Part shown: positions 10,466 through 60,287 of the stretch, piece after piece | Numbering within the stretch: the first letter of the stretch is position 1 | Layout: each line of letters opens with the position of its first letter | DNA from: Escherichia coli | GTDB taxonomy: Bacteria; Pseudomonadota; Gammaproteobacteria; Enterobacterales; Enterobacteriaceae | Reading direction: 5' to 3' (one strand) | DNA: 64,000 nt | NCBI RefSeq assembly: GCF_003334785.1 | Contig: NZ_QOWV01000001.1 | Made by a program: the position numbers and the translations under genes | The notes under the pieces: model-generated | Databases searched by the model: none | Seen by the model: the letters and a program-made list of their open reading frames with translations, nothing else | What the model was told of the DNA's origin: nothing

Positions 10466-10480
10466 TTATGTAAACGGGTT
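10452..10480 (-). terminator. Rho-independent terminator downstream of int, built from phage DNA plus the att core
   Basis: The minus strand reads AACCCGTTTA-CA-TAAATGGGTT followed by TTTTTTG. The stem (10459-10480) has one mismatch and the T-run lies within the att core. Confidence 0.6.
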
Positions 10481-10484
10481 AATG

Positions 10485-10521
10485 AAAACAATAAGTTAGG
10501 TTAAAAACAATAAGTTAGGTT
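10485..10521. repeat. Tandem direct repeat next to attL (candidate integrase arm-type sites)
   Basis: AAAACAATAAGTTAGGTT occurs at 10485-10502 and again at 10504-10521 (19-bp period). TGGTGGT-cag-TGGTGGT follows at 10521-10537. The repeat lies between the att core and the int stop. Confidence 0.5.
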
Positions 10522-10539
10522 GGTGGTCAGTGGTGGTTA

Positions 10540-11592
10540 TTACGGGGTAATGCCAACCGCTGCCGCCACTTTGTCGCCACTTGGCAGCGTTGCCAGAGGA
10601 TTGAAACGGAGCGCCGTTTCTAGATGATCCGGTGCCAGATGTGCGTAACGCATAGTCATTTTTATATCGTGGTGTCCGAGAATTTTTTGTAAGGCCAGAA
10701 TGTTTCCACCCGACATCATGAAGTGCGCCGCAAACGTATGGCGCAGAACGTGTGTGAGTTGACCGCGAGGGAGCACGATAGACGTTTTTTCCATCACGGA
10801 TAAAAATTGAAAATAGCAGTCTGTGAAGAAATTGAACCCATCAAGCGCCATGATCTCTTCGTAAAGCTCTTTACTGATAGGGATGCTTCTGTTTTTCTTC
10901 CCCTTCGTTCTGACAAAGGTAATTCGGTATTTGGTCACCTGTGAGCGGGTAAGATTTACGGCTTCACGCCAGCGTGCGCCTGTGCTTAAGCATATCTTAA
11001 CTACCAGTGCCAGAATTGGGTCCTGACGTTTGCAATCAGCCAGCAATTCAACAATCTGCTCATGGGTAAGCCATGCCATCTCTTTTTCTGCGATGGTGAA
11101 TTTTCGCATGTTCTCCAGTGGGTTCGGATACGACCATTCGCCCAGACGGGATAGTTCGCTAAAAACACTACTTAGATAGCTTTGCTCCAGGTTAATGGTG
11201 ACCGGGCTTGCTCCTTTCTTCCATTTCTCGCTGAAGTAGATCTCGCCTGTCAGGCGTTTATCTCGATAGTGGGCAAACATTTTAGAGGTGAGATCGGTTG
11301 CAAGAGGATTGCCCAGAGCGTCAACCATCAACAGCAATTTGTCATAGACATGCTGCCCAGCTGTCAGAGATTTACCATGTAGTTTGAACCATAGCTCAAC
11401 CACGTCTTTCAGTGTTCGACGATCCACTGATTCACCCAGCCAGGGCTTTGCTTCGGTTTCTTCCATCGTGTGGCGCTCAAAAGCCAGTGCTTCGCCTTTG
11501 GTGGCGAATTGTTTACGCACACGACGCCCACTTCGTCCGGCGGGGTAACATTCGCAAAGCCATTTCCCTGTGGTTAGTTTTCGTACTGCCAT
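10540..11592 (-). CDS. int: Tyrosine-recombinase integrase (P2/186 type)
   Basis: 350 aa starting MAVRKLTTGKWLCECYPAGRSGRRVRKQF.... The C-terminal catalytic region has TGARWREA, HVLRHTFAAH and GHHDIKMTMRYAHL (R-H-R-Y signature). It is adjacent to attL. Confidence 0.95.
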   Translation of the reverse strand: MAVRKLTTGKWLCECYPAGRSGRRVRKQFATKGEALAFERHTMEETEAKPWLGESVDRRTLKDVVELWFKLHGKSLTAGQHVYDKLLLMVDALGNPLATDLTSKMFAHYRDKRLTGEIYFSEKWKKGASPVTINLEQSYLSSVFSELSRLGEWSYPNPLENMRKFTIAEKEMAWLTHEQIVELLADCKRQDPILALVVKICLSTGARWREAVNLTRSQVTKYRITFVRTKGKKNRSIPISKELYEEIMALDGFNFFTDCYFQFLSVMEKTSIVLPRGQLTHVLRHTFAAHFMMSGGNILALQKILGHHDIKMTMRYAHLAPDHLETALRFNPLATLPSGDKVAAAVGITP

Positions 11593-11616
11593 AAAAAGCC
11601 CTCATATCAGAGGGCT
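11593..11616 (-). terminator. Hairpin plus T-run immediately upstream of the int start codon
   Basis: The minus strand reads AGCCCTC-TGATAT-GAGGGCT-TTTT-ATG(int). It is terminator-like, and its 3' arm GAGGG is also the only Shine-Dalgarno candidate for int. Confidence 0.55.
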
Positions 11617-11674
11617 AAATTTAACTGTATATGTAACCAGTAATCAATGTGTGATTACTATGAAACATACATTG

Positions 11675-13351
11675 CTAAGCAACATGTAGTTCATCGTTGG
11701 CGGAAGTGGCTGCTTTGCGCTCCTGCTCAATAGCTAGAGACTCTCTATATTCTTTCGCCTCTGCAAACATTGTCCAGTGGGCGTTGATGTTCATGTCTTC
11801 AATAACTGATTTGATTTCTTTTAAATTTACGTTAAAAAACTCTTTTCGTGAGTTAATTTTATTGACCTGCTTTTCGTTGAAAACTTTATGCAGATGGTTT
11901 TCTAATGATGGTGCATCATCACTATAAATCATCGCATGAACATCGAACGAAAAAGGAACACTAGCATCTCCGAGTTCACGAACACGATCAAGTGGTTCAA
12001 GGCGGCGTGTCATTCCAATTTTATATACATCTTCGCCAAATGAACCAATATTACTAATGATATAGACGTGGCCTGATCTGGTTTGTTGAGCCATAGAAAT
12101 AGCTCGTTGATTTTTAGCTTCAGCTTCTTCATATTTTAACTGTAGTTCAGCTATTTTTTGCTCTAAAGCTAAGCGTTGTTCTTCATTTGCAAGCATAAGT
12201 TCTTTCGTTGCTTTATTTATAGCTTGCTGAATAGCTTTTTCTTCTTTTTCAGCTTCTTTTATCGCTTTTTCATATTCTCTACGAGCTCTTTCCTCTTCAC
12301 GAAGCTGTTCTTTAATCCTTCTTTGCTCTTCTTTTTCTTCGAGCATAATTTCATTAACTGCTACACCCCATTTTAGCTCGTTGAGTCTTGCCTGAAGATA
12401 GATGTCACTTATTTTTGCGGACCTAAAGGCAGAGCCATTGTAATTTACTAGTTGAAATGCATCTTTTATTTCTTGGGAAAGTTTTCCAAAATTGTTGTGT
12501 TTGACTTTTGATAAAATACTGTCAACTCTTCCATTGAAGGCATCCAAAACAAAGTTTATGGCAGTATTACGCCTGTTTTGCTCAACATAATCACACGAAG
12601 CAGCTTTATTAGTTTTTATTAATGATTTGGTTAACTCTCTGGCTTTTTGTAATTCCTTGCCTGCATCTGTAAATTCATAATTTTCTGCCAGCTCATCAAG
12701 TACACTACGGTTAGGGATGATCCATTCATCACCATAACCTTCAATTTTATTTTTCATTGATTTTGCAACTGCTTCATATTTTTCTGCAAACTCTTTAGCT
12801 TCATATGCTGAACCAGCAATCTCCTTTGCTCTTTCTTCTGCATCAGAAATAATTTTTACTGCATTGTCATTAGCATTTGAGATTAGCTCATTTGCTTTAT
12901 TATTAGCATTATCAAGACGTTCTTTGGCTTTCAGGCGTGCATCGCGAGCGTCTTTGGTGATTGCTATAGCTTCGCTATTAGCGTTGCTTATTGTCATCTG
13001 AGCTTGATAATTTGCTTCGTTTACTGTTTTAGCCGCCTTAATTTGGGCTTCATCTATTTTTTGCTTGGCTATTGAGTCCGCATTTTTTATCTTATTCTCT
13101 GCATCCATTACTGCGCTGTGCAATTCTTCGTATTGCCACAATGGTGCTGCTCGCCCTTCAAGCTCTGATAATTCTCGTACGGTCTGTGCTAGTTTTTCTT
13201 GATTTTCAATCAGTTGGTTAGAAAGGGCTATGTTGTTAGCTGTCAGGTTATCTATAGCCGCTTTGTGTTTTTTACTTTGTTTAAATAATATTACAGCTAG
13301 AACAGGGGCGAGAAATGCTAATAAGAGTATAACGATGGCAAATGAATTCAT
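11675..13351 (-). CDS. Membrane-anchored coiled-coil protein with DUF4041-like core and C-terminal T5orf172/GIY-YIG-like nuclease domain (candidate anti-phage effector)
   Basis: 558 aa. Residues 4-23 are hydrophobic (FAIVILLLAFLAPVLAVILF) and followed by KQSKKHK. Residues ~30-200 and ~335-425 are charged heptad-like regions. Residues ~205-330 (YGDEWIIPNRSVLDELAENYEFTDAGKELQKAR...) look DUF4041-like. Residues ~428-520 (GHVYIISN..VYKIGMTRR..RVRELG..EFF) look T5orf172-like. An RBS AAAGGA lies 7 nt before the ATG, and the gene is AT-rich relative to its neighbours. Confidence 0.85.
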   Translation of the reverse strand: MNSFAIVILLLAFLAPVLAVILFKQSKKHKAAIDNLTANNIALSNQLIENQEKLAQTVRELSELEGRAAPLWQYEELHSAVMDAENKIKNADSIAKQKIDEAQIKAAKTVNEANYQAQMTISNANSEAIAITKDARDARLKAKERLDNANNKANELISNANDNAVKIISDAEERAKEIAGSAYEAKEFAEKYEAVAKSMKNKIEGYGDEWIIPNRSVLDELAENYEFTDAGKELQKARELTKSLIKTNKAASCDYVEQNRRNTAINFVLDAFNGRVDSILSKVKHNNFGKLSQEIKDAFQLVNYNGSAFRSAKISDIYLQARLNELKWGVAVNEIMLEEKEEQRRIKEQLREEERARREYEKAIKEAEKEEKAIQQAINKATKELMLANEEQRLALEQKIAELQLKYEEAEAKNQRAISMAQQTRSGHVYIISNIGSFGEDVYKIGMTRRLEPLDRVRELGDASVPFSFDVHAMIYSDDAPSLENHLHKVFNEKQVNKINSRKEFFNVNLKEIKSVIEDMNINAHWTMFAEAKEYRESLAIEQERKAATSANDELHVA

Positions 13352-13371
13352 TTTAAAATCCTTTTACTATA

Positions 13372-13968
13372 TTAATTCGAGACTATTGTACTTCTTATAC
13401 AAGCAACCACTTCAATATCAGAAAATGCACATTCAAAGCTATTCTCTGCTGTTGTAATTTTAATCATTCCTTTAGGAAGCCTTGTGATTTTTCGAATGGA
13501 ATAGGTTCCGTCGATATTGATTAACCAGTTTCCATCAAGTACTTCAGAAAATTTTTGATCACAAATGTATGTGACGAGTCCATCCTGAACAACAATTGGT
13601 GATGAAAGGTTTGCAGGAAGAAATGATGAATCGAAGACATATGAACCGTCTTCAATCATTTTGCCTGCGGCAAGGCGAAACTTAACAAGCTCTTCTGTAG
13701 CTGCTGTCAGCGAGCTTTGCTTAAGGCCTTGTCCGGTAGTTAACCATTTGAGGGAGGTTCCTGTTTCAAGAGCACATTGGATTATCCAGTCAGCAGGAAA
13801 TGTATCCCGCAAATACCTGTTCGCTAGTGTGCTTTTTGATACTTCCAAGTGATCAGCTAAAGCCTGTCGTGTCGTAAAGCCATAGGCTTCGACTAATCGC
13901 TCAATCGCAGCCTTACCACCTTTATTGGGATTTATTTTGATCTCACTTGGGTACTTTGATGTTGACAT
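13372..13968 (-). CDS. cI: Phage 186-type CI immunity repressor
   Basis: 198 aa. The N-terminal HTH region ERLVEAYGFTTRQALADHLEVSKSTLANRYLRDTFPADWIIQCALETGTSLKWLTTGQG resembles 186 CI as I recall it. It is divergent from the apl-cII early operon. Confidence 0.85.
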   Translation of the reverse strand: MSTSKYPSEIKINPNKGGKAAIERLVEAYGFTTRQALADHLEVSKSTLANRYLRDTFPADWIIQCALETGTSLKWLTTGQGLKQSSLTAATEELVKFRLAAGKMIEDGSYVFDSSFLPANLSSPIVVQDGLVTYICDQKFSEVLDGNWLINIDGTYSIRKITRLPKGMIKITTAENSFECAFSDIEVVACIRSTIVSN

Positions 13969-13990
13969 ATCTCTTTTGCGATCCTAGTAT
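13962..13990 (+). promoter_or_regulatory. Candidate early lytic promoter (pR/Pe equivalent)
   Basis: TTGACA (13962-13967), a 17-nt spacer, then TAGTAT (13985-13990). The -35 overlaps the cI start codon and the promoter points into apl-cII. Confidence 0.6.
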
Positions 13991-13997
13991 CAGTTTT

Positions 13998-14013
13998 GTA
14001 CCCAATTGGGTAC
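13998..14013. promoter_or_regulatory. Perfect 16-bp palindrome, candidate repressor operator
   Basis: GTACCCAATTGGGTAC lies immediately downstream of the candidate -10. An extra half-site TTGGGTAC is at 13947-13954. Confidence 0.5.
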
Positions 14014-14063
14014 TTGTCACGATTACTACAGGCTCACCACAAGCCAATAGGAGATGTTGCATC

Positions 14064-14285
14064 ATGACCCCTAACATTTCAATAACTCTGAATACGCCAC
14101 ACGTCACAATCGAGCGTTATAGCGAACTTACTGGTCTTTCAATCGACACAATCAACGATATGTTGGCGGATGGTCGCATTCCTCGGCATCGTCTTCGTAA
14201 AGACAAGAAAAGAGAAAAGGTAATGATCAACCTTGCTGCTCTTACCGTTGATGCACTTACTGATTGCAATGTTGTATTCAACTAG
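14064..14285 (+). CDS. Apl/Cox-like small HTH excisionase-repressor
   Basis: 73 aa from ATG 14064, with an AGGAG about 9 nt upstream. [32 protein letters not shown] is HTH-like. It is the first gene of the rightward operon, as apl is in 186 and cox in P2. Confidence 0.7.
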
Positions 14286-14317
14286 TTCCATTTTGGGATA
14301 CATCAGAGGTGTCGACC

Positions 14318-14827
14318 ATGTTTGATTACCAAGTTTCCAAACATCCACATTTTGATGAAGCCTGTCGAGCATTCGCACTGCGCCACAATCTGGTGCAACT
14401 GGCAGAACGTGCGGGCATGAATGTGCAGATTCTGCGGAACAAGCTGAACCCAGCTCAACCTCATTTATTAACCGCACCAGAAATCTGGCTGCTTACCGAT
14501 CTGACTGAAGATTCAACGTTGGTAGATGGTTTTCTGGCACAGATTCATTGTCTGCCATGTGTACCGATTAATGAGGTAGCAAAAGAGAAACTGCCGCATT
14601 ACGTCATGAGCGCAACTGCAGAGATCGGGCGTGTTGCAGCAGGTGCGGTATCTGGTGATGTAAAAACTAGTGCCGGTCGTCGTGATGCTATCAGCAGCAT
14701 TAACTCTGTAACACGACTGATGGCGCTGGCTGCTGTTTCATTGCAAGCCCGTTTACAGGCTAATCCTGCGATGGCGAGTGCAGTTGATACCATGACTGGC
14801 CTTGGTGCTTCATTCGGTTTGCTGTGA
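14318..14827 (+). CDS. cII: Phage 186-type CII lysogeny-establishment activator
   Basis: 169 aa from ATG 14318 (RBS AGAGG). [45 protein letters not shown]...[26 protein letters not shown] closely resembles 186 CII as I recall it. Confidence 0.85.
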
Positions 14828-14834
14828 GGTGTTT

Positions 14835-15131
14835 ATGCTGACGAAAGAACCATCATTTGCATCGCTGCTGGTAAAACAAAGCCCGGCAATGCACTACGGT
14901 CACGGCTGGATCACGGGTGAGGATGGAAAACGCTGGCATCCATGTCATTCACAAGATGAATTGCTGTCTGAATTGACCACGAGGAAACGGAGAAAGTCCA
15001 AATGTATGCGGCAGAAAGTGAAGTGGTTTATCAGTTTCGTTACAGAGGGGAGAGTTATTCAGTACCTGAAGATGATTTGCTCTGTTGCTATCCGTCATTG
15101 TCGGGCGATGGCAGTTACTTTTTCACGTTAA
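14835..15131 (+). CDS. Hypothetical early protein (position of fil in 186)
   Basis: 98-aa ORF from ATG 14835 (RBS GAGGTG). The first ~55 aa look protein-like (MLTKEPSFASLLVKQSPAMHYGHGWITGEDGKRWHPCHSQDELL), but the tail overlaps the next ORF by 130 nt and looks like noise. Confidence 0.4.
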   Translation: MLTKEPSFASLLVKQSPAMHYGHGWITGEDGKRWHPCHSQDELLSELTTRKRRKSKCMRQKVKWFISFVTEGRVIQYLKMICSVAIRHCRAMAVTFSR

Positions 15132-15226
15132 AGGATGGGACGTTTTTACGGGGAGAGCAGGTTAAAGAGACGATACGAAAAAATGTATCTCCTCTTGAGC
15201 GTTACCGTAAGAACAAAGAACGATAG
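15002..15226 (+). CDS. Hypothetical early protein
   Basis: 74-aa ORF with GGAG about 10 nt upstream. It overlaps the 3' part of the previous ORF in another frame. Confidence 0.45.
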   Translation: MYAAESEVVYQFRYRGESYSVPEDDLLCCYPSLSGDGSYFFTLKDGTFLRGEQVKETIRKNVSPLERYRKNKER

Positions 15227-15248
15227 CTGCGTTTGGGGGATATGAAGT

Positions 15249-15590
15249 ATGGCAATTAATGGCGCTGCAGCAACTGTTCCATTAAGCCCCGGTGAACGCC
15301 TGAATGGACTTAATCACATTGCGGAGTTAAGGGCGAAAGTTTTTGGCCTGAATATTGAGTCAGAGCTTGAGCGGTTTATTAAAGATATGCGTGATCCACG
15401 GGATATCAATAATGAACAAAATAAACGGGCACTGGCTGCCATATTCTTTATGGCAAAAATTCCAGCTGAACGTCATAGCATCAGCATTAATGAGCTGACC
15501 ACTGACGAAAAGCGGGAGCTGATTAAAGCAATGAATCATTTTCGTGCAGTGGTGAGCTTATTTCCCAGACGGCTAACCATGCCGAATTAA
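15249..15590 (+). CDS. Hypothetical early protein
   Basis: 113-aa ORF in the early operon, non-overlapping. No motif recognised. Confidence 0.55.
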   Translation: MAINGAAATVPLSPGERLNGLNHIAELRAKVFGLNIESELERFIKDMRDPRDINNEQNKRALAAIFFMAKIPAERHSISINELTTDEKRELIKAMNHFRAVVSLFPRRLTMPN

Positions 15591-15657
15591 CCAACTAATG
15601 AAATTAATGGCGTAAACCCGCCGGGCATCCCTTTATCTAAATTCAGGAGAATTGATT

Positions 15658-15891
15658 ATGCGTAATATTGAAACCCTCACGACTAAAACCGGACCGGATG
15701 ACGCAGGGCTTAATATTTTACTGACAGAGGCTCGTCTGGAAGAACGCCGGGCAAGGGCTGAAGCAATGGCTGCTCGCCTTGATAGCCTGGCGTGTCATAT
15801 CTCATCCCGCCAGCTAAACCACGTGGAAGCGGCAGAACTGCTGCGCGTGACTGCTGAAGCAATCCAGAACGAAGCGCAGGAGATCCACTAA
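15658..15891 (+). CDS. Hypothetical early protein
   Basis: 77 aa from ATG 15658 (AGGAGA 7 nt upstream; the track start 15652 is a TTG). Helical and Ala/Glu/Arg-rich. Its stop overlaps the next start (TAATG). Confidence 0.55.
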   Translation: MRNIETLTTKTGPDDAGLNILLTEARLEERRARAEAMAARLDSLACHISSRQLNHVEAAELLRVTAEAIQNEAQEIH

Positions 15892-16118
15892 TGGCTGATG
15901 CAATGGATCTCGTACAGCAGCGCGTTGAAGAAGAACGCCAGCGCCATATCCGTGCAGCCCGTGCCAAATCACCGGGCGTGTCACGCGTACTTTGCATTGA
16001 ATGTGAAGCGCCAATTCCGCCAGCACGACGCCGCGCCATTCCGGGAGTGCAGCTTTGCATTACCTGTCAGGAAATCGCAGAACTGAAAGGCAAACATTAC
16101 AACGGAGGTGCTGTATGA
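15891..16118 (+). CDS. TraR/DksA-family C4 zinc-finger protein (P2 orf82-like)
   Basis: 75 aa with CIECEAPIP...CITCQ (CxxC-N17-CxxC) following a coiled N-terminus, typical of phage TraR-like proteins. Confidence 0.8.
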   Translation: MADAMDLVQQRVEEERQRHIRAARAKSPGVSRVLCIECEAPIPPARRRAIPGVQLCITCQEIAELKGKHYNGGAV

Positions 16119-16972
16119 GCACCATCCTGAAATGGGCGGGAAATAAAACCGCCATTATGCCAGAACTGAAAAAATACCTTCCTGCTGGCCCGCGACTGGT
16201 TGAACCTTTCGCGGGTTCCTGTGCTGTGATGATGGAAACGGATTATCCCAGCTATCTGGTTGCGGATATTAATCCTGATTTAATCAACCTCTATAAAAAG
16301 GTTGCCGCTGATTGTGAATCGTTTATATCTCGCGCCAGAGTTTTATTTGAGATCGCAAACAGGGAGGTGGCTTATTACAACATAAGGCAGGAGTTTAACT
16401 GCTCAACTGAAATTACTGATTTCATGAAAGCGGTATATTTCCTGTATCTCAATCGTCACGGTTACCGTGGTTTATGTCGCTATAACAAGAGCGGGCATTT
16501 CAACATTCCCTACGGTAATTATAAAAATCCGTATTTCCCTGAAAAAGAACTTCGTACATTTGCAGAAAAAGCCCAGCGAGCAACGTTTATCTGCGCCAGC
16601 TTTGATGAAACGCTGGCGATGTTGAAGGCGGGAGATGTGGTGTATTGCGATCCGCCATATGACGGTACGTTTTCCGGCTATCACACTGATGGTTTCACTG
16701 AAGATGACCAGTATCACCTGGCATCCGTTCTTGAACATCGGTCATCAGAAGGACATCCGGTCATTGTTTCTAACAGTGACACATCCCTGATCCGTTCGCT
16801 GTATCGCAATTTTACTCACCACTATATCAAGGTAAAACGCAGCATCGGTGTGGCAGCTGGCGAGGGTAAATCAGCAACAGAAATCATTGCTGTTTCCGGG
16901 CCGCGCTGCTGGATGGGATTTGATTATTCGCGTGGCGTGGATAGTTCTGCCGTGTACGGAGTACGTGCATGA
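16115..16972 (+). CDS. dam: Prophage DNA adenine methyltransferase (Dam family)
   Basis: 285 aa from ATG 16115 (ATGA overlap with the upstream stop). It has [23 protein letters not shown], the SAM motif EPFAGSCAV and the catalytic DPPY (VYCDPPYDG). Confidence 0.9.
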
Positions 16973-57326: not shown

Positions 57327-59603
57327 ATGCTCAATCAAGAACTGGAACTCAGTTTAAATATGGCTTTCGCCAGAGCGCGCGAGCACCGTCATGAGTTTAT
57401 GACCGTCGAGCACTTGTTACTGGCGCTGCTCAGTAACCCATCTGCCCGGGAGGCGCTGGAAGCGTGTTCTGTGGATTTGGTTGCGCTCCGTCAGGAACTG
57501 GAAGCCTTTATTGAACAAACCACACCCGTTCTGCCTGCCAGTGAAGAGGAGCGCGACACACAGCCGACGCTGAGTTTTCAGCGTGTACTGCAACGTGCGG
57601 TCTTCCATGTCCAGTCCTCCGGTCGCAATGAGGTTACCGGTGCAAACGTTCTGGTCGCTATCTTTAGCGAACAGGAGTCGCAGGCGGCATATCTGTTGCG
57701 TAAACATGAAGTCAGCCGTCTCGATGTGGTGAACTTTATCTCTCATGGCACGCGTAAAGACGAGCCGACACAGTCTTCTGATCCTGGCAGCCAGCCAAAC
57801 AGCGAAGAACAAGCTGGTGGGGAGGAACGTATGGAGAATTTCACGACGAACCTGAATCAGCTTGCGCGCGTGGGCGGAATCGACCCACTGATTGGTCGTG
57901 AGAAGGAGCTGGAGCGTGCTATTCAGGTTCTCTGCCGTCGCCGTAAAAACAACCCGCTGCTGGTGGGGGAATCTGGTGTCGGTAAAACCGCGATTGCGGA
58001 AGGTCTTGCCTGGCGAATTGTTCAGGGCGATGTGCCGGAAGTGATGGCTGACTGTACGATTTACTCTCTCGATATCGGTTCTCTGTTAGCGGGCACAAAA
58101 TATCGCGGCGACTTTGAAAAACGTTTTAAAGCGTTGCTCAAGCAGCTGGAGCAGGACACTAACAGCATCCTGTTTATTGATGAGATCCACACCATTATCG
58201 GTGCGGGTGCAGCGTCTGGTGGTCAGGTCGATGCGGCTAACCTAATCAAACCGTTGCTCTCCAGCGGTAAAATTCGTGTAATTGGTTCGACAACCTATCA
58301 GGAGTTCAGCAACATTTTCGAGAAAGACCGTGCTCTGGCGCGTCGCTTCCAGAAAATTGATATTACTGAACCGTCGATCGAAGAAACTGTTCAAATCATC
58401 AATGGCCTGAAACCGAAGTATGAAGCGCACCACGACGTGCGTTATACCGCAAAAGCGGTGCGTGCGGCGGTAGAGCTGGCGGTGAAATACATTAACGATC
58501 GTCATCTGCCGGATAAAGCCATTGATGTTATCGACGAAGCGGGCGCTCGCGCACGCCTGATGCCGGTAAGCAAACGCAAGAAAACCGTTAATGTGGCGGA
58601 TATTGAGTCCGTGGTGGCCCGTATTGCACGCATTCCAGAGAAGAGTGTTTCTCAGAGTGATCGTGATACCCTGAAAAACCTCGGCGATCGCTTGAAAATG
58701 CTGGTCTTCGGTCAGGATAAAGCCATTGAGGCGCTGACTGAAGCCATTAAGATGGCGCGTGCAGGTTTAGGTCACGAACATAAACCGGTTGGTTCGTTCC
58801 TGTTTGCCGGCCCTACCGGGGTCGGGAAAACAGAGGTGACGGTACAGCTTTCGAAAGCTTTGGGCATTGAGCTTCTGCGCTTTGATATGTCCGAGTATAT
58901 GGAACGCCATACCGTCAGCCGTCTTATTGGTGCGCCTCCGGGATACGTTGGTTTTGATCAGGGCGGTTTGCTGACTGATGCGGTCATCAAGCATCCACAT
59001 GCGGTGCTGCTGCTGGACGAAATCGAGAAAGCGCACCCGGACGTGTTCAATATTCTGTTGCAGGTGATGGATAACGGTACGCTGACCGATAACAACGGAC
59101 GCAAAGCAGACTTCCGTAACGTGGTGCTGGTGATGACCACCAACGCCGGGGTACGGGAAACTGAGCGCAAATCCATTGGTCTTATCCACCAGGATAACAG
59201 CACCGATGCGATGGAAGAGATCAAGAAGATCTTTACACCGGAATTCCGTAACCGTCTCGACAACATTATCTGGTTTGATCATCTGTCAACCGACGTGATC
59301 CATCAGGTGGTGGATAAATTCATCGTCGAGTTGCAGGTTCAGCTGGATCAGAAAGGTGTTTCTCTGGAAGTGAGCCAGGAAGCGCGTAACTGGCTGGCCG
59401 AGAAAGGTTACGACCGGGCAATGGGCGCTCGTCCGATGGCGCGTGTCATCCAGGACAACCTGAAAAAACCGCTCGCCAACGAACTGCTGTTTGGTTCGCT
59501 GGTGGACGGCGGTCAGGTCACCGTCGCGCTGGATAAAGAGAAAAATGAGCTGACTTACGGATTCCAGAGTGCACAAAAGCACAAGGCGGAAGCAGCGCAT
59601 TAA
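57327..59603 (+). CDS. clpA: ATP-dependent Clp protease unfoldase ClpA
   Basis: 758 aa from ATG 57327 ([24 protein letters not shown]...), with two AAA+ modules ([16 protein letters not shown]). Confidence 0.97.
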
Positions 59604-59626
59604 TCTGATTGTTAGGTAGGTTGGTC

Positions 59627-59664
59627 AAGTCCGTAATCTCGAAAGAGGTTACGGACTTTTTGTT
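59627..59664 (+). terminator. Rho-independent terminator of clpA
   Basis: AAGTCCGTAA (59627-59636) pairs with TTACGGACTT (59649-59658), followed by TTTTGTTT. Confidence 0.8.
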
Positions 59665-59815
59665 TATGGGGTGGAGGAGGTTCAGACCCTTTTTTTAATG
59701 ATGATGGTAAGTTGTTGATAATTAGTGCTGCGGGAAGGTAAGGATAAAAAAGGGTGCTGCAGGAGAATGGGATGGTTTTGCTTTATTAACAACGGGCTAA
59801 ACGTGTAGTATTTGA

Positions 59816-59903
59816 GTTCACTGCCGTACAGGCAGCTTAGAAATTCACAGGTAACATACTCCACCCGCCCACCATGTTCACTGCCGTACAGACAGATAAA
59901 ATG
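59816..59903 (+). CRISPR. Orphan type I-F CRISPR mini-array (2 repeats, 1 spacer), no cas genes in window
   Basis: Repeat 1 is GTTCACTGCCGTACAGGCAGCTTAGAAA (59816-59843), the canonical E. coli I-F repeat. The 32-nt spacer is TTCACAGGTAACATACTCCACCCGCCCACCAT (59844-59875). The degenerate terminal repeat is GTTCACTGCCGTACAGACAGATAAAATG (59876-59903). An AT-rich leader-like region lies upstream. Confidence 0.9.
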
Positions 59904-59946
59904 CGAAAAAAAAGCTCGCACTTTCGTACGAGCTCTTCTTTAAATA

Positions 59947-60034
59947 TGGCGGTGAGGGGGGGATTCGAACCCCCGATACGTTGCCGTATACACACTTTCC
60001 AGGCGTGCTCCTTCAGCCACTCGGACACCTCACC
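59947..60034 (-). tRNA. serW: tRNA-Ser (anticodon GGA)
   Basis: The minus strand reads GGTGAGGTGTCCGAGTGGCTGAAGGAGCACGCCTGGAAAGTGTGTATACGGCAACGTATCGGGGGTTCGAATCCCCCCCTCACCGCCA (88 nt). It has a long variable arm, an encoded CCA, and the anticodon loop CTGGAAA. Confidence 0.95.
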
Positions 60035-60287
60035 AAATTGTTTTGCTACCAAACCTCATGGGTGGCAACGGGGCGCTACTATAGGGAGTTGGAGTAAAAC
60101 GGTCAAGAAGAATTTTAATGATAATTATTGTTTGCTCATACTGTAAACAAGTTGTGCAGTATATCTACATCGAGACAAGTTACGGACTTATACTTCCAAA
60201 GTACTTCATACATATCACAAAATAAAAAGGCCGGTTAAACCGACCTTTTACTCGTTCTTTCTCTTCGCCCATCAGGCGGTAAAACAA

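What the first reader, a model, noticed from the sequence alone, without database searches (positions are those of the whole stretch)
59680..59903. Cas-less type I-F CRISPR mini-array (one 32-nt spacer) between clpA and serW
A canonical 28-nt I-F repeat, a 32-nt spacer (TTCACAGGTAACATACTCCACCCGCCCACCAT) and a degenerate terminal repeat follow an AT-rich leader-like stretch. No cas gene occurs anywhere in the 64 kb. From memory, E. coli strains lacking the I-F cas cluster keep such a minimal array at the clpA-infA locus. Some of those orphan spacers have been reported to match I-F cas genes themselves, proposed to block re-acquisition of the system. Whether this spacer is of that anti-cas type cannot be decided without a search.
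Basis: partly seen in the sequence, partly recalled or inferred. Interest (0 to 1): 0.5.

Follow-up and report, generated by a model that had tools for sequence, protein, structure and literature searches.

The report
E. coli orphan anti-cas1 CRISPR mini-array
This is the well-known one-spacer type I-F CRISPR remnant that E. coli K-12 and about 40% of other E. coli strains carry between clpA and serW; its spacer matches the I-F cas1 gene itself, so it is a documented "anti-cas" array and not a new feature.

Summary
A canonical 28-nt I-F repeat lies at 59816-59843 (Rfam CRISPR-DR4, 50.1 bits). A 32-nt spacer follows at 59844-59875, then a degenerate terminal repeat at 59876-59903. The array sits between the clpA stop codon and serW.

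No I-F cas homologue was found in the window.

- Its reverse complement matches codons 33-43 of cas1f, and the protospacer carries the I-F PAM (5'-CC).
- It matches 30/32 and 29/32 in the two E. coli cas1f allele groups and 31/32 in Escherichia ruysiae.
- Shuffled spacers reach at most 23/32. Phage and plasmid collections give no other target.

The array is base-for-base that of K-12 MG1655 and BL21. This spacer family occurs in 2320 of 5426 complete E. coli genomes, whereas cas1f occurs in 241. All nine orphan spacers sampled target I-F cas genes.

The anti-cas idea was proposed by Touchon and Rocha in 2010. A review reports that Almendros et al. tested it experimentally in 2016.

Two details weaken this allele. 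A G-to-A change breaks the hairpin of the terminal repeat. Spacer position 4, in the seed, mismatches the E. coli cas1f alleles examined.

Verdict: real, correctly interpreted, already known, low interest.

The parts
59601..59603 (+). clpA stop codon (TAA). It marks the upstream boundary of the intergenic region.
   Evidence: Sequence. clpA is annotated in the collinear genomes.
59627..59658 (+). clpA intrinsic terminator hairpin followed by a run of T. It separates clpA transcription from the array.
   Evidence: Terminator scan, 14 pairs. Inverted repeat I1.
59659..59815 (+). CRISPR4.1-type leader. It is AT-rich, and the roughly 70 nt nearest the repeat are almost invariant across Escherichia.
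   Evidence: Alignment A1. The window segment 59604-59843 is identical to K-12 and to the leader of the cas-linked CRISPR4.1 array of I-F-positive strain ETEC-2264. Window 59000-59843, which also includes the 3' end of clpA, is 97% identical to the same region of strain GPEC1186. No plus-strand sigma-70 consensus promoter was found by the simple scan, so the promoter position is not defined here.
59816..59843 (+). Canonical 28-nt type I-F repeat. It has a 5-bp stem and 5-nt loop hairpin, and its 3' end supplies the 8-nt CUUAGAAA 5' handle.
   Evidence: Rfam CRISPR-DR4 at 50.1 bits, E = 2e-10. Fold energy -8.6 kcal/mol.
59844..59875 (+). 32-nt anti-cas1f spacer.
   Evidence: Its reverse complement matches cas1f codons 33-43, and the protospacer is preceded by 5'-CC. 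The match is 30/32 in GPEC1186, A22 and NGF1, 29/32 in ETEC-2264 and 31/32 in E. ruysiae. In 2000 shuffles the best match was 17-23/32. tblastn with Cas1f hits only this site in the window.
59876..59903 (+). Degenerate terminal repeat. Its first 20 nt carry one change, G17A, which creates a C-A mismatch in the hairpin stem. Its last 8 nt, ATAAAATG, have diverged from the consensus.
   Evidence: Fold energy -1.4 against -8.6 kcal/mol. The same G17A change is present in K-12, the B strain, S. flexneri and CRE1540. The hairpin is intact in O157:H7, AVS0068 and Z1323HEC0462.
59906..59941 (.). Hairpin that terminates serW on the minus strand. It probably also ends the array transcript on the plus strand.
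   Evidence: Terminator scan on the minus strand, 16 pairs. Plus-strand fold of -9.4 kcal/mol followed by CUCUUCUUU. The plus-strand role is inferred.
59947..60034 (-). serW, tRNA-Ser(GGA). It marks the downstream boundary.
   Evidence: ARAGORN, Rfam tRNA and the K-12 annotation.

Best explanation
This is the E. coli K-12-type orphan type I-F array, called CRISPR4.1-2 by Diez-Villasenor and Mojica and CRISPR3 by Touchon and Rocha. It has an intact leader, one canonical repeat, one spacer copied from the I-F cas1 gene and a decayed terminal repeat.

Proposed mechanism:
1. The array is transcribed from its leader into a short pre-crRNA. That RNA does nothing while the cell has no I-F Cas proteins.
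2. DNA carrying an I-F cas operon enters the cell and is expressed.
3. The incoming Cas6f cuts the transcript into a 60-nt crRNA: CUUAGAAA, the 32-nt guide, then the 3' hairpin.
4. The incoming Csy proteins load this crRNA and bind the cas1f protospacer next to its CC PAM.
5. The incoming Cas2-3 degrades the DNA that encodes them, with primed spacer uptake reinforcing the attack.

The array therefore acts as a latent block against re-acquiring the I-F system.

Shown here: the anatomy, the identity of the target, the PAM, leader conservation and the population distribution. Taken from the literature: constitutive transcription and interference against plasmids carrying I-F cas genes. Inferred only: that this particular allele still works, given its G17A terminal repeat and its position-4 mismatch to E. 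coli cas1f.
For: **Array anatomy and significance:**

**Target:**
- The spacer matches cas1f at 29-31/32 with a 5'-CC PAM.
- The O157:H7 variant of the same spacer is 32/32 to E. ruysiae cas1f.
- The shuffle null peaks at 18-19/32 and never exceeds 23/32.
- No phage or plasmid target exists. The only weak plasmid hit is another cas1f, in Vitreoscilla.

**Pattern across strains:**
- All nine distinct spacers sampled from orphan arrays hit cas1f, cas3f or csy3 at 29-32 matched positions. Eight have a 5'-CC PAM in both reference operons. The ninth has it only in the ETEC-2264 operon.
- None of the 43 spacers in two I-F-positive strains matches its own cas operon better than 21/32.
- Genome counts are 2320 for this spacer family, 1559, 676 and 393 for three other anti-cas spacers, and 241 for cas1f. 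They sum to 5189 of 5426, which is compatible with mutual exclusion.

**Signs the array is maintained:**
- The leader is identical to that of a cas-linked CRISPR4.1 array.
- The only difference between the window spacer and the 32/32 variant is at position 6. Type I guides flip out every sixth base (my own knowledge of Csy and Cascade structures), so this change should not affect pairing.

**Literature:**
- The anti-CRISPR hypothesis for exactly this array is in PMC2886076.
- The review PMC8616872 summarises Almendros et al. 2016: orphan arrays are constitutively expressed, interfere with plasmids carrying I-F cas genes and prime spacer uptake.
- The PAM orientation, GG at the leader-proximal end of the protospacer, is given in PMC3506596.
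Against: - **Terminal repeat:** it supplies the 3' hairpin that Cas6f must bind for this only spacer. It carries G17A, and the predicted stability falls from -8.6 to -1.4 kcal/mol. A related I-F Cascade needs a structured 5-bp stem (PMC11300857).
- **Seed mismatch:** spacer position 4 mismatches both E. coli cas1f allele groups examined, four loci in all. By my own knowledge of I-F seeds (positions 1-5, 7 and 8), this should weaken direct interference, though it may still allow priming.
- **Decay in relatives:** the spacer has a 4-nt deletion in 13P484A, a variant seen in about 327 genomes. The anti-cas3 spacer of S. flexneri has a 1-nt deletion.
- **Promoter:** no consensus promoter was found in the leader by the simple scan.
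- **Primary paper:** the full text of Almendros 2016 is not held. I could not check whether the K-12-type allele was among those tested.
Confidence: 0.75

Rival explanations
1. The array is an inert fossil. An ancestor with a working I-F system took up a spacer from its own cas1 gene. The resulting self-targeting selected for deletion of the cas operon. What remains is a neutral scar that no longer does anything in this K-12-type lineage.
For: - A hairpin-breaking G17A change in the terminal repeat.
- A seed mismatch at position 4 to the E. coli cas1f alleles examined.
- Indel-damaged copies of the same or sister spacers in other strains.
- No consensus promoter detected.
- According to PMC2886076, Diez-Villasenor et al. 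2010 proposed the loss-through-self-targeting scenario.
Against: - The leader is 100% identical to the leader of a cas-linked array.
- Only anti-cas spacers survive in the orphan arrays sampled. Four spacer families cover about 4948 genomes.
- Touchon and Rocha argue that spacers are normally lost quickly, so retention implies selection.
- Interference by native orphan arrays is reported experimentally (review).
- The single spacer substitution falls on the non-pairing position 6. This is weak evidence, since 5 of 32 positions are of that kind.

The origin story (self-targeting) and a present-day protective function are not mutually exclusive.
Confidence: 0.2
2. The array is not orphan. A complete I-F cas operon elsewhere in the same genome services it.
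For: Only 64 kb of the genome is visible, so this cannot be excluded directly.
Against: - In 5426 complete E. coli genomes, cas1f occurs in only 241. All copies are chromosomal, with a median of one per genome.
- In the two loci inspected in full, the operon sits in the clpA-serW interval. That interval is only 343 bp in the window.
- An operon carrying a near-matching cas1f protospacer with a PAM would be self-targeted by this spacer.
- I-F-positive strains carry no cas-matching spacers.
Confidence: 0.03
3. It is a chance pair of direct repeats, or a terminator-like palindrome unrelated to CRISPR.
For: There are only two repeat copies, and the second scores below the Rfam threshold on its own (20 bits).
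Against: - The first repeat matches the I-F consensus at 27 of 28 positions and scores 50.1 bits, E = 2e-10.
- The spacing is the exact 60-nt I-F period.
- Two core matches were found against 0.01 expected.
- The locus is homologous to full arrays in I-F-positive strains.
- The spacer matches cas1f.
Confidence: 0.01

Closest known systems
E. coli K-12 MG1655 orphan I-F array between clpA and serW, named CRISPR4.1-2 in PMC3903273 and CRISPR3 in Touchon and Rocha 2010 (PMC2886076)
   Same: Repeat 1, the spacer and the terminal repeat are identical, and the leader is identical. The flanking genes are the same.
   Different: No difference in the array or in the leader stretch aligned. The window's genome differs elsewhere: it has a P2-like remnant between ybjL and rcdA.
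Anti-cas orphan CRISPR4 arrays described by Almendros, Guzman, Garcia-Martinez and Mojica, Nat Microbiol 2016. Known here only through the review PMC8616872.
   Same: An orphan I-F array whose spacer's best match is an I-F cas gene of related strains. The proposed action, using incoming Cas proteins against their own genes, is the same.
   Different: I could not confirm that this exact allele was among those tested. It has the position-6 variant of the cas1f spacer and a G17A terminal repeat.
E. coli O157:H7 variant of the same array
   Same: Same locus, the same cas1f protospacer and the same divergent 3' end of the terminal repeat, ATAAAATG.
   Different: O157 has T at spacer position 6, giving 32/32 to E. 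ruysiae cas1f, and an intact terminal hairpin (GGCAG). The window allele has A at position 6 and GACAG.
Cas-linked CRISPR4.1 arrays of I-F-positive E. coli such as GPEC1186, ETEC-2264 and LF82 (PMC3506596)
   Same: Same leader, same repeat, same position downstream of clpA and same orientation.
   Different: Those arrays have 7-11 spacers, none matching cas genes. Their terminal repeat keeps an intact hairpin and ends in TATTCACA. They are followed by cas1f through cas6f, and a second array (CRISPR4.2) lies between serW and infA. The window lacks that second array: window 60116-60223 replaces about 700 bp.

Membership tests
Type I-F CRISPR array (Rfam CRISPR-DR4, 'CRISPR-4' repeats) | 28-nt repeat matching the I-F consensus GTTCACTGCCG(C/T)ACAGGCAGCTTAGAAA | tested here: met
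   Repeat 1 scores 50.1 bits against RF01317 (gathering score 35), E = 2e-10.
Type I-F CRISPR array (Rfam CRISPR-DR4, 'CRISPR-4' repeats) | At least two repeats at a 60-nt period separated by a 32-nt spacer | tested here: met
   Repeats start at 59816 and 59876 with a 32-nt spacer between them. The second repeat is degenerate, 22/28.
Type I-F CRISPR array (Rfam CRISPR-DR4, 'CRISPR-4' repeats) | A 5-bp stem and 5-nt loop hairpin in the repeat that supplies the 3' end of the crRNA | tested here: not met
   Repeat 1 folds at -8.6 kcal/mol. The terminal repeat, which supplies the 3' hairpin for the only spacer, has a C9-A17 mismatch and folds at -1.4 kcal/mol.
Type I-F CRISPR array (Rfam CRISPR-DR4, 'CRISPR-4' repeats) | A leader homologous to leaders of cas-linked arrays | tested here: met
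   Identical to the CRISPR4.1 leader of I-F-positive ETEC-2264.
[quoted passage not shown] | cas1f, cas2-3f, csy1, csy2, csy3 and cas6f adjacent to the array | tested here: not met
   tblastn finds no I-F Cas homologue in the 64 kb. The clpA-serW interval is 343 bp. The annotation of the collinear genome has no cas gene.
E. coli orphan anti-cas CRISPR4 array (Touchon and Rocha 2010; Almendros et al. 2016) | Located between clpA and serW/infA in a locus that lacks I-F cas genes | tested here: met
E. coli orphan anti-cas CRISPR4 array (Touchon and Rocha 2010; Almendros et al. 2016) | The spacer matches an I-F cas gene of related strains, with the I-F PAM | tested here: met
   cas1f codons 33-43, 29-31/32, 5'-CC PAM. 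Shuffles reach at most 23/32.
E. coli orphan anti-cas CRISPR4 array (Touchon and Rocha 2010; Almendros et al. 2016) | No I-F cas genes anywhere in the same genome | not testable with these tools
   Only the window is available. No complete genome in the collection matches the window throughout, because the P2-like insert is covered at 80% or more by one genome only, at 96% identity. Population counts are compatible with exclusion.
E. coli orphan anti-cas CRISPR4 array (Touchon and Rocha 2010; Almendros et al. 2016) | The array is transcribed and can be processed by Cas6f | not testable with these tools
   A review reports this for orphan arrays in general. The simple scan finds no consensus promoter, and the terminal hairpin is weakened.
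E. coli orphan anti-cas CRISPR4 array (Touchon and Rocha 2010; Almendros et al. 2016) | Interference against incoming DNA that carries I-F cas genes | not testable with these tools
   This needs an experiment. The position-4 seed mismatch to E. coli cas1f alleles leaves the outcome for this allele uncertain.

The most novel reading that the evidence does not exclude
The K-12-type allele, found exactly in 1430 of 5426 genomes, may be a functionally weakened version of the anti-cas1 block. Its terminal hairpin is broken by G17A, and its seed (position 4) mismatches the E. coli cas1f alleles examined. If so, it would give direct interference only against E. ruysiae-like I-F systems and at most priming against E. 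coli ones.

A quarter of E. coli strains, including the laboratory strains, would then be more open to I-F acquisition than O157-type strains. This would be a natural gradient for testing how much orphan arrays really limit cas gene flow. It refines known biology and is not a new kind of system.
Probability: 0.3. Interest if true: 0.3.

Novelty: already known. Interest (0 to 1): 0.12.

Why it matters
It matters little as a discovery. The same array is in E. coli K-12. Its cas-targeting spacers were described in 2010, and a review reports that they block uptake of I-F systems.

The case is useful as a clean positive control for the scan. A reader working from raw sequence recognised a genuine orphan CRISPR array and stated the right hypothesis.

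The allele-level details found here point to a simple experiment on whether common laboratory strains still carry a working anti-cas guide. Those details are the position-6 change in the spacer, the position-4 seed mismatch to E. coli cas1f and the broken hairpin of the terminal repeat.

Tried and rejected
- **Phage or plasmid target:** blastn with 11-nt words at E up to 10 found only a 17-nt chance match in phage Lw1 and a 22/25 match to Vitreoscilla cas1f on a plasmid. Rejected.
- **Perfect 32/32 cas1f match for the window spacer:** none was found among species-representative genomes with a pattern allowing N at positions 4, 6 and 10. The best is E. ruysiae at 31/32. The O157 variant is 32/32.
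- **Escape hypothesis:** the idea was that E. coli cas1f alleles mutated the protospacer to evade the spacer. It is not supported. The protospacer differs from E. ruysiae at 1-2 of 32 positions (3-6%), while the whole gene differs by 7-8%. The position-4 difference is a synonymous AGT/AGC change.
- **Leader promoter:** the simple sigma-70 scan gave no plus-strand site. By eye, a weak candidate exists, TAGTAT at 59806-59811 with TTATTA 17 nt upstream, but it matches only 7 of 12 positions. I do not claim it.
- **CRISPR4.2 remnant between serW and infA:** none. The short direct repeats D1 and D4 are not collinear, and I treat them as chance. Window 60116-60223 has no similarity to the CRISPR4.2 leader or array of GPEC1186.
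- **Papers not held:** the full text of Almendros 2016 and of Shmakov 2020 is not held. A literature search for Csy4 stem-mismatch data gave nothing directly usable.
- **Cross-tabulation:** a full comparison of cas1f-positive genomes against spacer-positive genomes was not possible, because the tool lists at most 60 rows.

Full report
**1. What is in the sequence**

The window reads, on the plus strand:
- the clpA stop codon at 59601-59603;
- a strong terminator hairpin at 59627-59658;
- an AT-rich stretch up to 59815;
- GTTCACTGCCGTACAGGCAGCTTAGAAA at 59816-59843;
- TTCACAGGTAACATACTCCACCCGCCCACCAT at 59844-59875;
- GTTCACTGCCGTACAGACAGATAAAATG at 59876-59903;
- a hairpin at 59906-59941;
- tRNA-Ser(GGA) on the minus strand at 59947-60034.

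Rfam's CRISPR-DR4 model matches the first repeat over its full length at 50.1 bits (gathering score 35, E = 2e-10). It matches the second repeat at 20 bits. The 20-nt repeat core with up to three mismatches occurs only at these two places in the 64 kb, against 0.01 expected. The spacing is the 60-nt period typical of I-F arrays.

**2. Genomic setting**

The 351 bases around the array are found in 5424 of 5426 complete E. coli genomes, always next to clpA and usually next to tRNA-Ser. The window is collinear with strain G8 from moeA to cydD. The exception is an 11.6-kb insert at 10466-22038.

That stretch of G8 has no annotated cas gene. tblastn with the six I-F Cas proteins of strain ETEC-2264 gives only chance-level hits in the window, apart from an 11-residue match of Cas1f to the spacer itself. 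The insert is a P2-like prophage remnant without cas genes.

I-F-positive strains such as GPEC1186 and ETEC-2264 have a different arrangement. The same clpA-serW interval holds a longer array, then cas1f-cas3f-csy1-csy2-csy3-cas6f. A second array lies between serW and infA. The window matches GPEC1186 up to the end of the first repeat and again from the serW terminator onward. Everything between is absent, and so is the second array.

The leader is not decayed. The segment 59604-59843 is identical to K-12 and to the leader of the cas-linked array of ETEC-2264. The roughly 70 bases nearest the repeat are almost invariant, even in Escherichia ruysiae.

**3. What the spacer matches**

The reverse complement of the spacer lies inside cas1f, at codons 33-43 (NGGRVEYVTSEG region).

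| cas1f allele | Genomes in group | Match | Mismatched spacer positions |
|---|---|---|---|
| Common E. coli allele (GPEC1186, A22, NGF1) | 201 at 99% identity or more | 30/32 | 4 and 6 |
| Second E. coli allele (ETEC-2264) | 40 at about 96% | 29/32 | 4, 6 and 10 |
| E. ruysiae | not applicable | 31/32 | 6 only |

The L007 locus is confirmed as cas1f-cas3f with a 29-spacer array.

In every case the protospacer, read in the sense of the spacer, is preceded by CC. This is the I-F PAM. It is written GG at the leader-proximal end in the convention of PMC3506596.

Two thousand shuffles of the spacer give best matches of 17-23/32 against the 8.3-kb operon. Phage and plasmid collections contain no alternative target. 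The only weak plasmid hit is another cas1f gene.

**4. Population context**

The array is base-for-base the one in K-12 MG1655 and in B strains. I queried the 5426 genomes with a 48-nt probe made of the 8-nt handle, the spacer and 8 nt of the next repeat.

| Feature | Genomes of 5426 |
|---|---|
| This anti-cas1f spacer family | 2320 |
| - exact match | 1430 |
| - one mismatch (O157:H7 type, T at position 6) | 563 |
| - lower-identity group (91.7%); the one strain inspected, 13P484A, has a 4-nt deletion in the spacer | 327 |
| Anti-cas3f spacer 1 | 1559 |
| Anti-cas3f spacer 2 | 676 |
| Anti-csy3 spacer | 393 |
| cas1f gene, all chromosomal | 241 |

All nine distinct orphan spacers I extracted match cas1f, cas3f or csy3 at 29-32 matched positions. 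Eight carry a 5'-CC PAM in both reference operons. The ninth carries it only in the ETEC-2264 operon. None of the 43 spacers of two I-F-positive strains matches its own operon better than 21/32.

Shigella flexneri keeps two spacers, anti-cas3 then anti-cas1, ahead of the same G17A terminal repeat. This suggests that the one-spacer arrays of K-12 type and CRE1540 type arose from a two-spacer ancestor by repeat-repeat deletion. That step is an inference.

**5. Allele-level details**

The O157 variant is identical to real cas1f sequence. The window and K-12 variant has A instead of T at spacer position 6. That change would turn the Ser codon into Cys, so it most likely arose in the spacer after acquisition. 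Position 6 is one of the bases that type I effector complexes flip out and do not pair (my own knowledge), so the change should be silent for targeting. A single event of this kind is weak evidence, because 5 of 32 positions share that property.

Two other features argue against full function.
- Position 4, inside the I-F seed (my own knowledge: positions 1-5, 7 and 8), mismatches both E. coli cas1f allele groups.
- The terminal repeat must supply the 3' hairpin for this only guide. It has G17A, a C-A mismatch in the stem, and predicted stability drops from -8.6 to -1.4 kcal/mol. Work on a related I-F Cascade found that a structured 5-bp stem is required (PMC11300857).

The protospacer is not unusually diverged between species: 3-6% against 7-8% for the whole gene. 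I therefore see no evidence that cas1f has evolved to escape this spacer.

**6. Mechanism**

The best-supported account is the published one. The orphan array is transcribed but idle. When DNA carrying an I-F operon arrives and is expressed, its Cas6f and Csy proteins load the resident guide, and its Cas2-3 destroys the DNA that encodes them, helped by primed spacer uptake.

Touchon and Rocha proposed this for exactly this array in 2010 (PMC2886076). A review reports that Almendros et al. 2016 showed constitutive expression, interference against plasmids carrying I-F cas genes, and priming (PMC8616872).

What I showed here is anatomy, target, PAM, leader conservation and distribution. What I did not show is transcription, processing or interference for this allele.

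The main rival is that this lineage's copy is now an inert scar of an old self-targeting event. I give that reading about 0.2. It is compatible with the same origin.

**7. Comparison and verdict**

The locus is a member of the I-F array family by repeat, period and leader. It fails the complete-system test because it has no cas genes. It fits the defining sequence features of the E. coli orphan anti-cas array. The functional features of that family cannot be tested with these tools.

Nothing separates it from the K-12 array. It is already known, and interest is low.

Noticed in passing
window 10466-22038: An 11.6-kb insert relative to strain G8, between ybjL and rcdA. It is a truncated P2-like prophage with an integrase, CI-type repressor, CII-like regulator, Dam-like methyltransferase, a long GpA replication protein (1034 aa), GpU and GpD, but no head genes or other tail genes. 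Only one of 5426 complete genomes (EC05, 96% identity) covers 80% or more of it.
   Followed up: partly
window 11675-13351 (minus strand): A 558-aa ORF lies between the prophage integrase and the repressor. It matches the PADLOC anti-phage model PD-Lambda-1 (E = 2e-120) and the Pfam domains DUF4041 and T5orf172. It is a defence gene at a spot where related prophages in other strains are annotated with other nuclease-type genes. Other genomes annotate it as a 'SNIPE associated domain' protein.
   Followed up: partly
window 16055-16972 (plus strand): A D12-class N6-adenine DNA methyltransferase inside the prophage remnant. PADLOC scores it as an orphan methyltransferase (E = 2e-110).
   Followed up: no
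L013 497-632 and L018 497-631 (B strain NEBExpress and Z1323HEC0462): In some strains an element of about 135 nt, annotated 'RtT sRNA', lies downstream of the terminal repeat, and no tRNA-Ser is listed in the stretch fetched. The window has no such element.
   Followed up: no
L019 517-784 (Ec-FL1-1X) and L021 99-364 (13P484A): Some cas-less strains carry 4-spacer orphan arrays in which the leader-proximal spacer is duplicated in tandem, and every spacer targets cas1f or cas3f. This could record past priming episodes or replication slippage. In Ec-FL1-1X a tyrosine recombinase gene follows the array.
   Followed up: partly
L001 17817-21050 and L003 301-1287: In I-F-positive strain GPEC1186, cas3f is annotated as a pseudogene with an internal stop. 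In strain A22, cas1f is annotated as frameshifted. So some cas-bearing loci are decaying.
   Followed up: no
window 60116-60223: The serW-infA spacer in the window is about 108 bp with no similarity to the roughly 700-bp CRISPR4.2 leader and array that fills this position in I-F-positive strains. Two promoter-like sites on the minus strand (60147-60118 and 60106-60078) face serW.
   Followed up: partly
E. coli genome searches: A few matches to orphan-array probes (1, 3 and 1 places) fall on records labelled as plasmids, although PLSDB has no plasmid with this spacer. These may be mislabelled chromosomal contigs. I did not inspect them.
   Followed up: no
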